Part shown: positions 54,001 to 57,000 of the stretch, one piece after another
Numbering within the stretch: the stretch's first letter is position 1
Layout: each line of letters starts with the position of its first letter
NCBI GenBank assembly: GCA_030265395.1
Contig: JARFYF010000050.1
Location: forward strand, 24,640,861-24,704,860
Direction of reading: 5' to 3'
Origin: Rhina ancylostomus
Taxonomy: Eukaryota
Length of the DNA stretch: 64,000 nt
Position numbers: made by a program

Positions 54001-57000
54001 TCCACCAATCACCTCGGACTCCTTTCTTGCCAGTGCCCTTCTCTTTGTGCTGACCATCTCGCCTCTCTACTCAGTCTTGATGCAGAGTTTTGACCCAAAA
54101 CATTGACAATTTCTTTCCTCCAGCGCGTTGAATGTTGCTCTGTGAAAACAATGGTTGGCCAGCTTGTTGATTCTCTATTCATCAACGTTGATTGTACAAG
54201 TGGGATTGTAACTTTTTGTCATAAAGTTTATGTGGGAATATTATTTAATTTGGGTCATTACTACTTAATTAAATCTTGGGTTTAGTGAGAGATTTTGTGG
54301 AATGTTCTAATTTTTTAGTCAGAGTAATTTTTTTATACTAATGTTTTTGATTTTCTTAAAACTTGGCTGAAAATTATTACTGCAGTACAAGTGCACAAGG
54401 ATCTTTGGCTATTCCTAAACCACTTTTTTTTTGCTCTCTTTTTGTTATAGGAGACTGAAATAAAATTCTTGAAGCTGCTATGGCATTGAATTTATTAAGA
54501 CTCTTTAATTTCATTCCATCTAAATTTCAAACATGCAACATCTTGCAGATTGTGAGGTGGAAATTGTACCCTTGCAAAAACTTCAACAAAATATTGTACC
54601 CACAATGCAGCAAGATTTTATCAACTAGATGTCTAAAGCTATGCCATCAATGGGTCCCTCATAAAGGATACCACTGTGTGGCCAGGGATCAGCCTGGTTC
54701 CACTTCAGGGACAGTGTGCCTTCATGGAGATGCTGGTGACAGCTTTGAGATGGGCAGCGAACAGGAGCAGTCCTCTTCTGAAGAAAAGTTTTTAAAATAT
54801 TTGAACAATAGTAAAACTGCCAAACAGATCTTTAAACTGCTGAAATCTTCAAAGTCCATTACAGACATAATGGCTGCTTCTGCCTTGCTTAAAATATCAC
54901 AGGTTGAAAAAGATGGCAATGGCCTGAGAAACCCTGCAGTACTGCTGGAAAATGAAACAGTCAAGGCATTATGTTTCCAGTTTGAGCAAGAGTCGGAGAA
55001 GCTGAGTACTAGAGCGCTGGTGACTGCACTGTATGCTTGCGTCCAATTGTACGTGGACCCGCAGAGCACTCTCATGATGACACTGTTGTCTGAAAGTCAA
55101 GAGAGGCTTGGCAAAGGTCAGATGTTTATTAAGGACTTGTGTTTGCTGGGCAAGGCCTTTCTGGACTTGGAGGGCCCAGGCTGTGGGATACTTAAGCAAA
55201 TAATGGAGCAAGTTCAGGGACAGAAAGTGGACATCTGGACATCTGAAGAATTAACAATGGTTTATGACCTGCTGGGGGCCGGTGTGGGAGAAGGAGGAAA
55301 TTACCAGGAGCTGCTAAACAAGATGAATTCCTGTTCCCTTCATTTAGCTTCCAGGCTGAGCCATAAAGCCAAAAGTGATATACTCAATGCAATGGTTGTT
55401 CTCAAGCAAACCCAAGCAATTCTTTTGGTAAATAATCTCTGTAAACATTCAGTGCGACACGTTCCTCATTTCTCAGACCAGGAGCTCATACCAGTACTGA
55501 ACGCTCTAATGTGCTTTGGAATCAGCGACAGGTTTTTTATTGATGCCCTGGAACGAAATATCCCCAAAAAAACTTTTGTCATGCAGCCCGAGGCGATCAG
55601 TAAAGTGATGCAATATTGCAACCAGCAGCGGATCCTTTCACCACCCATATTTGATGCAGTTGCTGAGAGCTTTGTTTACAATTCAGACAACTTTACAACG
55701 AAAGAAATTGCCTTACAAATTATGCCATTTGGTAGGTTAAATTATTTGCCTCCAAATGCAGGTCAGTTGTTCCGAAAGATTGAAAGCCTATTAAAGGGCC
55801 GATTTTCACAATTTCAGCCTCAAACTCTACTGAATCTGCTTCATTCCTGTATATTAATAGAACGATTTCCTGTGAACTTTGTATCCAAAATCTTTAGTCC
55901 CTACTTTCTACAGCTGCTAGAAGGTGAGCCTATTTGTTTAATTACAAACTCCTCCTACCTTGCTTACCATTTTGGTTCGGTAGAACCAAAGTAATCTCTC
56001 ATTCATTTGTGTCATTGTAAAGTATTAACTATTTCAGATTATAAAATGTAAAGTAACATTTTTATCATTAAATTATTGGAGTTTTTTGGAAGACTTGAAA
56101 ATTTGTCCCAGTTCTGAGGTTTTATTCAATTGATTCAGATGCACAGTTGAACTTCATAGTTAGAACGACCAGTGATAAAGTATTTGGGATGCTACAGTTG
56201 ATAGTGTGTGTTTTTGTTTGCATTCTAGTGGATTTTATAATTCAGTTTTCTCCTGCTATTGATTCTACTCTCCTCGTCCTGCCTAAAGGATTCGGTGATC
56301 CTGCTGTGACAAAATCAGTTCCCCAATATCTTACTAAAATGTATTTGCTGCTTAATTTGGAAGGGAGAGCAATTTTGAAAACTGGTAAACTGGGAAAATT
56401 GAAGAAAAATATTTTGGTATAATACAGCTTTATTTTGTTCTTCAAGAATGTATTTAATTACTGGGCATTTCAGCAAGAGGCACATTTGAAACAATATCCC
56501 AGCAGGTAGTGAGTGCTTTTGCAGGAAGTGGTTGGGGAGTGCATGGGGAAAGAAAATGAGTATCAACCAGGGAAGAGACCATACTAGACCTTGTACTGGG
56601 AAATGAGCCTGGCCAGATGTTTGTAATTTCAGTGGGAGAGCATTTTGGGAACAGTGATCATCTGATTTAAGATGGTCATGGATAAGAATAAGACTGGATC
56701 TTGGTAGGGAGCAGGGGGAGGGAAGTGCTAAACTGAGGGAGAGCTAATTACGACAGTATTCATCGGGAACTGGGAAGGGTGGATTGGGAACACTTGTTAT
56801 CTGACGGCTTTTAAACACCAGCTGGTTAGAATTCAGGAGCAGTATGTTCCTCTGAAGATGAAAGCTGAAGATGACGAGAGGTGTTGTAAGTTAAGTCAAA
56901 AAGAAAAAAGGAAGCCTATCTAAGTATTAGGAAGCTGAAATCAGATAAGGTCCTTGTGGAATGTAAAGGAAGCAGGAAAGAACTTAAGCAAGGGATCAGG

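What the first reader, a model, noticed from the sequence alone, without database searches (positions are those of the whole stretch)
54451..55994. Intact FASTKD3-like gene lying antisense inside an ARHGAP44 intron
Seen: an uninterrupted 481-codon exon with canonical acceptor and donor on the + strand, between minus-strand ARHGAP44 exons at 58337-58413 and 34999-35116. Known: FASTK-family proteins regulate mitochondrial RNA; human FASTKD3 lies head-to-head with MTRR on chr5, whereas ARHGAP44 is on chr17 next to ELAC2. Inference: this is a differently located orthologue or a second FASTKD3 paralogue in a non-mammalian syntenic context. The retained splice sites at both ends argue against a processed retrocopy, and the lack of stops in 1.44 kb suggests constraint or recent origin.
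Basis: partly seen in the sequence, partly recalled or inferred. Interest (0 to 1): 0.75.

Follow-up and report, generated by a model that had tools for sequence, protein, structure and literature searches.

The report
FASTKD3 exon, probably mis-scaffolded into ARHGAP44
The open frame is the real main coding exon of the ordinary mitochondrial RNA regulator FASTKD3 of a ray, but its position inside an ARHGAP44 intron rests only on two assembly gaps and is not seen in related species, so it is probably an assembly artefact.

Summary
The exon is real. It runs 54451-55923 on the + strand with an AG acceptor and a GT donor. The ATG is at 54480, followed by 481 codons, and the frame ends in a FAST_1 domain. 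It matches sawfish (Pristis pectinata) FASTKD3 at 457 of 481 residues without gaps. It is the FASTKD3 orthologue of an elasmobranch; the contig is not human.

It is not an intact gene. The FAST_2 and RAP exons (about 180 codons), a promoter CpG island and any MTRR exon are absent from the window.

The flanking minus-strand exons are ARHGAP44, with 12 collinear exons.

The nesting is unsupported. The FASTKD3 exon lies on a 14-kb contig (43249-57317) between two 100-N gaps, and that contig carries no ARHGAP44 exon. These two gaps show no end overlap, whereas four other gaps do. In Pristis, Narcine and Heterodontus the two genes sit on different chromosome-scale contigs. They share a contig in 0 of 20 informative species.

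Most likely this is a misplaced contig. A lineage-specific insertion remains possible. Interest is low.

The parts
54451..55923 (+). FASTKD3 main coding exon. The 5' UTR part is 54451-54479 and the CDS is 54480-55923 (481 codons plus 1 base, phase 1).
   Evidence: FAST_1 at residues 414-480. 457/481 identical to Pristis pectinata FASTKD3, no gaps, same start.
54449..54450 (+). AG acceptor behind a pyrimidine tract
   Evidence: Read.
55924..55925 (+). GT donor (AAG|GTGAGC). The split codon G|CN fits Ala482 of the sawfish protein.
43249..57317 (.). 14,069-base contig piece carrying the FASTKD3 exon and no ARHGAP44 exon. Its placement and orientation are unanchored.
   Evidence: N runs listed. 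Exon map. No other Pfam-detectable coding piece.
43149..43248 (.). 100-N gap on the left of the FASTKD3 contig, with no end overlap
   Evidence: overlap 0.
57318..57417 (.). 100-N gap on the right of the FASTKD3 contig, with no end overlap
   Evidence: overlap 0. The left edge by eye ends in a repeat-like ORF, and the right edge starts in a SINE-like repeat.
60224..60335 (-). ARHGAP44 exon (BAR domain)
58337..58413 (-). ARHGAP44 exon just 5' of the intron in question
   Evidence: 26/26 identical to Pristis.
34999..35116 (-). ARHGAP44 exon just 3' of the intron in question
   Evidence: 40/40 identical to Pristis.
27596..27664 (-). ARHGAP44 exon
23816..23897 (-). ARHGAP44 exon (end of BAR)
21586..21713 (-). 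ARHGAP44 exon
20772..20883 (-). ARHGAP44 exon (RhoGAP)
17132..17213 (-). ARHGAP44 exon (RhoGAP)
15758..15838 (-). ARHGAP44 exon (RhoGAP)
14768..14881 (-). ARHGAP44 exon (RhoGAP)
12992..13083 (-). ARHGAP44 exon
503..683 (-). ARHGAP44 exon outside the conserved domains, used alone as the search query
   Evidence: 61/61 identical to Pristis.

Best explanation
The frame is the genuine large first coding exon of the single-copy FASTKD3 orthologue of a ray closest to the sawfish among annotated species. It encodes the N-terminal presequence, the helical middle region and the FAST_1 domain.

In mammals FASTKD3 is imported into mitochondria. It binds mitochondrial mRNAs, limits the levels of ND2, ND3, CYB, CO2 and ATP8/6 mRNAs, and is needed for COX1 translation. 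This function needs the RAP domain, which is encoded by exons that are not in this window.

The apparent antisense nesting in an ARHGAP44 intron is most likely an assembly artefact. A 14-kb contig from the real FASTKD3 locus was dropped between two ARHGAP44 contigs when the scaffold was built. The identity of the exon is shown. The function is inferred by orthology. The misplacement is inferred, not shown.
For: Identity:
- FAST_1 at 82.6 bits.
- 82 of 120 listed hits are named FASTKD3 or FAKD3. No hit is named as another FASTK paralogue.
- Identity falls with phylogenetic distance: Pristis 95, Hypanus 85, Narcine 85, Rhinoraja 82, sharks 71-80, Callorhinchus 62, Latimeria 57 %.
- 457/481 identical to sawfish FASTKD3 with no gap and the same start.
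- The window keeps 120 of 122 sites that are invariant in 14 other vertebrates.

Only one exon is present:
- tblastn with sawfish FASTKD3 finds residues 1-483 only.
- A sensitive search with the C-terminal parts of 4 ray proteins gives a best E of 0.32 and nothing on the + strand downstream.
- 0 of 134 + strand ORFs and 0 of 135 minus-strand ORFs hit any Pfam family. In the control, 5 of 8 single ARHGAP44 exon ORFs did hit.
- There is no CpG island in the 64 kb.

Placement:
- The exon's contig, 43249-57317, has no ARHGAP44 exon.
- Both flanking gaps have zero end overlap. Gaps at 28489, 41115, 38709 and 33556 have overlaps of 20, 24, 6 and 4 bases. Random junctions reach 4 or more bases in 0.75% of trials, 6 or more in 0.065%, and 15 or more in 0 of 20000.
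- Pristis pectinata FASTKD3 lies on a 116,561,020-base contig and ARHGAP44 on a 44,725,268-base contig. Narcine shows 494,489,450 against 375,657,673, and Heterodontus 227,092,150 against 77,794,652.
- Across 21 species present in both listings, 20 are informative and 0 share a contig length.
- A sole BAC holds fastkd3 with 11 other genes, none of them arhgap44 (passages read in PMC6829477 and PMC6236887).

Function: passages read in the review PMC5737537.
Against: - No read-level data were available, so the misjoin is not demonstrated.
- Absence of an end overlap is also seen at two other gaps (992 and 33251) whose neighbours do carry collinear ARHGAP44 exons. It is therefore a lack of support, not evidence of error.
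- The contig-length comparison shows only that other species lack the arrangement. The window's own species could differ.
- For some non-elasmobranch clusters with several members, the listed contig may belong to another member. For teleosts only the ARHGAP44 paralogues that reached the top 120 were compared.
- The window lineage carries more changes than the sawfish lineage (14 against 6, with 4 ambiguous). These include two sites invariant in 14 other vertebrates, Pro315Leu and Ile318Asn. This would also fit a copy under relaxed constraint, although the difference is not significant.
Confidence: 0.6

Rival explanations
1. A real, lineage-specific DNA-level duplication. A genomic piece of the FASTKD3 locus, holding the big exon with parts of its flanking introns, was copied into the ARHGAP44 intron of this ray. 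This left a partial, probably non-functional copy or one that encodes a truncated protein lacking FAST_2 and RAP.
For: - Only this exon is present, with intron flanks.
- The window branch is somewhat longer than the sawfish branch, and two universally conserved residues are changed.
- Relatives lack the arrangement, as expected for a young event.
Against: - Both junctions fall exactly in gaps, so no contig shows FASTKD3 sequence joined to ARHGAP44 sequence.
- The frame is fully intact over 481 codons, with no indel against the sawfish. By my rough estimate this is unlikely if the 24 differences had arisen neutrally.
- No second locus could be looked for.
Confidence: 0.15
2. The whole functional FASTKD3 gene has moved in this species and now overlaps ARHGAP44 antisense. 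Its later exons lie beyond position 64000, so its long intron encloses ARHGAP44 exons. That would be interleaved rather than nested.
For: - Intact exon with strong splice sites and a good start context.
- Introns here are long: the ARHGAP44 intron is 23 kb. Missing exons within 8 kb are therefore not decisive.
Against: - No promoter-like CpG island in the 11 kb upstream on the same contig, or anywhere in the window.
- The closest relative keeps the genes on different chromosomes.
- ARHGAP44 exons at 58413-58337 and 60335-60224 lie downstream of the FASTKD3 exon, so the gene cannot sit inside the one intron.
Confidence: 0.1
3. The nesting is an old, conserved arrangement of fishes that is already annotated elsewhere.
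For: None found.
Against: - 0 of 20 informative species share a contig between the two genes. These include 3 elasmobranchs, sturgeon, bichir and 6 teleosts.
- A sole BAC with fastkd3 lacks arhgap44.
- Only one paper in the library holds both gene names, and it is an unrelated human blood study by its title and abstract start.
Confidence: 0.02
4. A processed retrocopy of FASTKD3 mRNA.
For: A long uninterrupted frame.
Against: - The match to the full-length protein stops at a GT donor in the middle of a codon. No sequence of the later exons follows.
- An AG acceptor with a pyrimidine tract precedes the 5' UTR part.
Confidence: 0.01

Closest known systems
FASTKD3 of Pristis pectinata (XP_051871379.1 and identical records, 662 aa)
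   Same: Same start, collinear with no gaps, and 95% identical over residues 1-481. FAST_1 is in the same place, and the split codon at the donor fits residue 482.
   Different: 24 substitutions. The window lacks the part encoding residues 482-662. The sawfish gene lies on a different chromosome-scale contig from ARHGAP44.
Human and mouse FASTKD3 as described in the FASTK family review (PMC5737537, passages read)
   Same: Family architecture as far as present. The N-terminus is basic with no acidic residue in the first 40 residues (read). It is followed by a helical middle region and FAST_1.
   Different: About half of the residues differ from tetrapod proteins (47-60% identity to the tetrapod FASTKD3 proteins listed). 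Function in a ray is untested.
ARHGAP44 (RICH2) of Pristis pectinata (XP_051888729.1)
   Same: All 416 residues encoded by the 12 window exons are identical. BAR and RhoGAP domains were hit exon by exon.
   Different: None seen in the coding part. The intron between the exons at 58337 and 35116 contains the extra contig.
True nested genes (an inner gene wholly inside a host intron, often antisense)
   Same: In the scaffold, the exon lies antisense between two consecutive host exons.
   Different: The inner transcription unit is not contained. There are no 3' exons and no promoter, and host exons lie downstream of it. The linkage itself is unproven.

Membership tests
[quoted passage not shown] | FAST_1 domain | tested here: met
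   PF06743, 82.6 bits, residues 414-480.
FASTK family | FAST_2 domain on the same polypeptide | tested here: not met
   Not encoded anywhere in the window. It is present in the sawfish orthologue (precomputed Pfam), so it is presumably encoded elsewhere in this genome.
FASTK family | [quoted passage not shown] | tested here: not met
   Same calls (10, 43, 46). The review states that an intact RAP domain is needed for FASTKD3 function.
FASTK family | N-terminal mitochondrial targeting sequence | not testable with these tools
   The first 40 residues hold 6 Arg/Lys and no Asp/Glu (read). No predictor was available.
FASTKD3 orthologue group | Best matches are FASTKD3 rather than FASTK, FASTKD1, 2, 4 or 5, with identity tracking phylogeny | tested here: met
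   82 of 120 are named FASTKD3 or FAKD3, 12 are hypothetical or unnamed product, 1 is named CTDNEP1, and 25 have no name. None is named as another paralogue. No tree with the other paralogues was built.
Nested gene | The whole inner gene lies within one intron of the host | tested here: not met
   Later exons and the promoter are absent. Host exons lie downstream.
Nested gene | Physical continuity of inner and host gene on one sequenced molecule | tested here: inconclusive
   Joined only across two 100-N gaps without end overlap. Reads are not available.
Processed retrocopy | Exons fused, no intron flanks | tested here: not met
ARHGAP44 (host gene) | BAR plus RhoGAP domains and the paralogue-specific segment after the GAP domain | tested here: met
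   BAR in 2 exon ORFs and RhoGAP in 3. The exon 683-503, searched alone, hit 50 proteins. All 5 long hits are ARHGAP44 or RhoGAP records. 100% identical to sawfish ARHGAP44.

The most novel reading that the evidence does not exclude
In this ray, and not in sawfish, numbfish or horn shark, a genomic copy of the FASTKD3 locus really sits antisense inside ARHGAP44. It would be either the relocated working gene or a young partial duplicate that keeps an open 481-codon frame. This would be a recent DNA-level gene movement in a lineage known for slow genome change.
Probability: 0.22. Interest if true: 0.4.

Novelty: already known. Interest (0 to 1): 0.13.

Why it matters
As it stands it matters mainly as a quality flag. 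The scaffold join around 43249-57317 should not be used for synteny or for gene models. An annotator could otherwise call a truncated FASTKD3 and a false antisense overlap with ARHGAP44. If the join were proven real, it would be a dated example of gene relocation or partial duplication between close ray lineages. That would be of modest interest for how nested or antisense gene pairs arise.

Tried and rejected
- the protein search with lengths 'longer' found nothing, because FASTKD3 proteins fall in the 'near' band. It was repeated.
I then gave stop-free ORFs.
- MTRR head-to-head partner: no Pfam family in 135 minus-strand ORFs of 38 aa or more between 35188 and 54218. The screen finds about 5 of 8 known single exons, so it is not exhaustive. 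ORFs under 38 aa were left out.
- Promoter: no CpG island. The highest observed/expected value, 0.66, lies inside the exon itself.
- Rfam: no RNA family in the window.
- Tandem repeats at 38000-59000: none.
- Self-comparison gave only 10 short repeat pairs. No repeat is split across a gap in a way that could anchor the contig.
- Relative-rate and conserved-site counts have too little power to separate a working gene from a young dead copy.
- dN/dS could not be computed, because no nucleotide sequence of any relative is available.
- Copy number in this genome, RNA evidence and MTRR linkage in elasmobranchs stayed unchecked.
- The short unnamed fragments proved to be unnamed Logan, ENA and JGI records and were not used.
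ARHGAP44 was identified from one exon searched alone and from named reference proteins mapped back on the window.
- Supplementary files of papers were not consulted.

Full report
What is in the sequence

On the + strand a frame stays open from 54459 to 55994, 511 codons. Reading the DNA gives these features:
- A long pyrimidine tract ends in AG at 54449-54450, so an exon can start at 54451.
- An in-frame TGA lies at 54456-54458.
- The first ATG is at 54480, with G at -3 and G at +4.
- A strong donor, AAG|GTGAGC, has its GT at 55924-55925.

The exon is therefore 54451-55923. It holds 29 bases of 5' UTR, 481 full codons (54480-55922, protein P0001) and one further base, so the next exon is entered in phase 1. 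The finding's end, 55994, is only the stop reached by reading through the donor.

What the exon is

- Pfam finds FAST_1 at residues 414-480 with 82.6 bits, against a cut-off of 27.4.
- The PDB search gives only a weak touch to a FASTKD4 construct, E 0.051.
- The protein search returned 586 hits at E of 0.001 or better, of which 120 were listed.
- Of those 120, 82 are named FASTKD3 or FAKD3, 12 are 'hypothetical' or 'unnamed', 1 is named CTDNEP1 and 25 carry no name. None is named as another FASTK family member.
- Identity follows phylogeny: Pristis pectinata 95%, Hypanus and Narcine 85%, Rhinoraja 82%, sharks 71-80%, Callorhinchus 62%, Latimeria 57%.
- Against the 662-residue sawfish protein the match is 457/481 with no gap and the same first residue. 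It ends at residue 481. The sawfish's residue 482 is Ala (GCN), which fits the single G left at the donor.

This is the FASTKD3 orthologue of an elasmobranch closest to the sawfish among annotated species. I do not take the contig for human. Each chondrichthyan in the listing appears with one FASTKD3 locus (isoforms on one contig), so there is no sign of a second paralogue.

What is missing

- tblastn of the sawfish protein against the window finds residues 1-483 only.
- A more permissive search used the C-terminal parts of four ray proteins. It gave nothing better than E 0.32 and nothing on the + strand between 55924 and 64000.
- 134 + strand ORFs of 38 aa or more between 41216 and 64000 hit no Pfam family at E of 0.01 or better.
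- 135 minus-strand ORFs between 35188 and 54218, where a head-to-head MTRR would lie, also hit none.
- As a control, 5 of 8 single ARHGAP44 exon ORFs hit BAR or RhoGAP at the same threshold. The screen is useful but not exhaustive.
- The window is strongly CpG-depleted, with a mean observed/expected of 0.18. It has no CpG island; the highest value, 0.66, is inside the exon.

The window therefore holds 73% of the coding sequence. It does not hold the FAST_2 and RAP exons or a recognisable promoter. [quoted passage not shown] 'Intact gene' is not confirmed.

The host gene

- The minus-strand pieces at 58413-58337 and 35116-34999 are consecutive exons that share a split Arg codon.
- I searched one exon alone, 681-505, which lies outside the conserved domains. 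It hit 50 proteins.
- The 5 long hits are ARHGAP44 of carp and garter snake, and RhoGAP or hypothetical records of Albula and Coryphaenoides.
- Mapping three named reference proteins, and then the sawfish, numbfish and horn shark ARHGAP44 proteins, back onto the window gives 12 collinear minus-strand exons.
- With splice sites read the exons are: 60335-60224, 58413-58337, 35116-34999, 27664-27596, 23897-23816, 21713-21586, 20883-20772, 17213-17132, 15838-15758, 14881-14768, 13083-12992 and 683-503.
- Together they make 1248 bases or 416 codons, all identical in protein to sawfish ARHGAP44.

Is the nesting real?

The window has eight N runs, which I did not try to fill. They cut it into nine pieces. 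ARHGAP44 exons lie on four pieces, in the right order and strand. The FASTKD3 exon lies on the piece 43249-57317, which carries no ARHGAP44 exon. Its position and its strand therefore rest entirely on the scaffold joins at 43149-43248 and 57318-57417.

I compared the ends of the pieces across each gap.
- At 28489 the ends overlap by 20 bases with 1 mismatch.
- At 41115 they overlap by 24 bases with 1 mismatch.
- At 38709 they overlap by 6 bases, and at 33556 by 4.
- Random junctions reach 4 or more bases in 0.75% of trials, 6 or more in 0.065%, and 15 or more in 0 of 20000.
- These joins are real neighbours, and 33566-43148 forms one chain attached to the exon at 35116.
- The two gaps around the FASTKD3 piece have no overlap at all.
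- The gaps at 992 and 33251 also have none. This is missing support rather than proof of error.

Nothing else in the window anchors the piece.

Other species

No eukaryotic genome could be searched. The protein listings, however, give the length of the contig on which each named record lies.
- Pristis pectinata: FASTKD3 lies on a contig of 116,561,020 bases and ARHGAP44 on one of 44,725,268.
- Narcine bancroftii: 494,489,450 against 375,657,673.
- Heterodontus francisci: 227,092,150 against 77,794,652.

These three were checked member by member with accessions.

In all, 21 species occur in both listings. One of them, Protopterus, is capped at 2,000,000,000 on both sides and is uninformative. 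In 0 of the other 20 do the two genes share a contig length. The 20 are the three above plus Acipenser ruthenus, Erpetoichthys, Anguilla rostrata, Scleropages, Polymixia, Myripristis, Gymnothorax, Aplochiton, Rhinatrema, Microcaecilia, Pleurodeles, Chelonia, Carettochelys, Pelodiscus, Zootoca, Heteronotia and Struthio.

There are two caveats. For some multi-member clusters outside the elasmobranchs the contig may belong to another member. For teleosts only the ARHGAP44 paralogues in the top 120 were seen.

A BAC of the sole Solea senegalensis holds fastkd3 with 11 other genes and no arhgap44 (tables read in PMC6829477 and PMC6236887). The library has one paper with both names, an unrelated human study judged from its title and abstract start. 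The arrangement is thus neither conserved nor described, and it is absent from the nearest relative.

Constraint

Of the 24 differences from the sawfish, outgroups assign 14 to the window's branch and 6 to the sawfish's; 4 are ambiguous. The window changes 2 of 122 sites that are invariant in 14 other vertebrates (Pro315Leu, Ile318Asn). The sawfish changes 0 of 120. The numbers are too small to decide between a working gene of a somewhat distant species and a young copy under relaxed constraint. The complete lack of stops and indels over 481 codons favours a working exon; this is my rough reasoning, not a computed test.

Verdict

The headline, an intact gene nested antisense in an ARHGAP44 intron as a new syntenic context or second paralogue, is not supported.

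My confidences are:
- 0.6 that a real FASTKD3 contig was misplaced by scaffolding.
- About 0.15 for a real partial duplicate inserted here.
- About 0.1 for a real relocation of the whole gene, which would then be interleaved with ARHGAP44 rather than nested.
- About 0.02 for an ancient conserved nesting and about 0.01 for a retrocopy; both are in effect excluded.

By orthology, the protein acts as in mammals: it is imported into mitochondria, binds mitochondrial mRNAs through its C-terminal domains, limits several mRNAs and supports COX1 translation. None of this was tested here.

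Noticed in passing
window 28409-28668 and 41035-41294: The contig ends on either side of the 100-N runs at 28489 and 41115 overlap by 20 and 24 bases with one mismatch each. These 'gaps' are really unmerged overlaps. Smaller overlaps of 6 and 4 bases occur at 38709 and 33556.
   Followed up: yes
window 503-60335, minus strand: Twelve ARHGAP44 exons encode 416 residues, every one identical to sawfish ARHGAP44 and nearly all to numbfish and horn shark. This is extreme conservation beside a FASTKD3 that differs by 5%.
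   Followed up: yes
whole window: CpG is very depleted, with a mean observed/expected of 0.18, and there is no CpG island in 64 kb.
   Followed up: partly
window 3549-3677, 52736-52836, 57462-57593: A short interspersed repeat of about 100 bases occurs in three copies at 72-79% identity. One copy starts the contig just right of the gap at 57318.
   Followed up: no
window 55422-55433 (residues 315 and 318 of the exon): Pro315Leu and Ile318Asn change two residues that are invariant in 14 other vertebrate FASTKD3 proteins. This could be lineage-specific change, sequence error or relaxed constraint.
   Followed up: partly
window 40141-40626 (-), 35864-36094 (-), 22002-22690 (-), 57238-57317 (+): By eye, several ORFs look like fragments of retroelement reverse transcriptase. 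Pfam reported no family for the two that were included, so this is unconfirmed.
   Followed up: partly
protein listing (P0075): [quoted passage not shown] This is probably a naming error in that record.
   Followed up: no
protein listing: About 20 hits of 454-525 residues carry FAST_1 but no FAST_2 or RAP. Most are unnamed and lie on short contigs. This is what read-through ORFs of the same large exon in other vertebrates would look like. They were not fetched.
   Followed up: no
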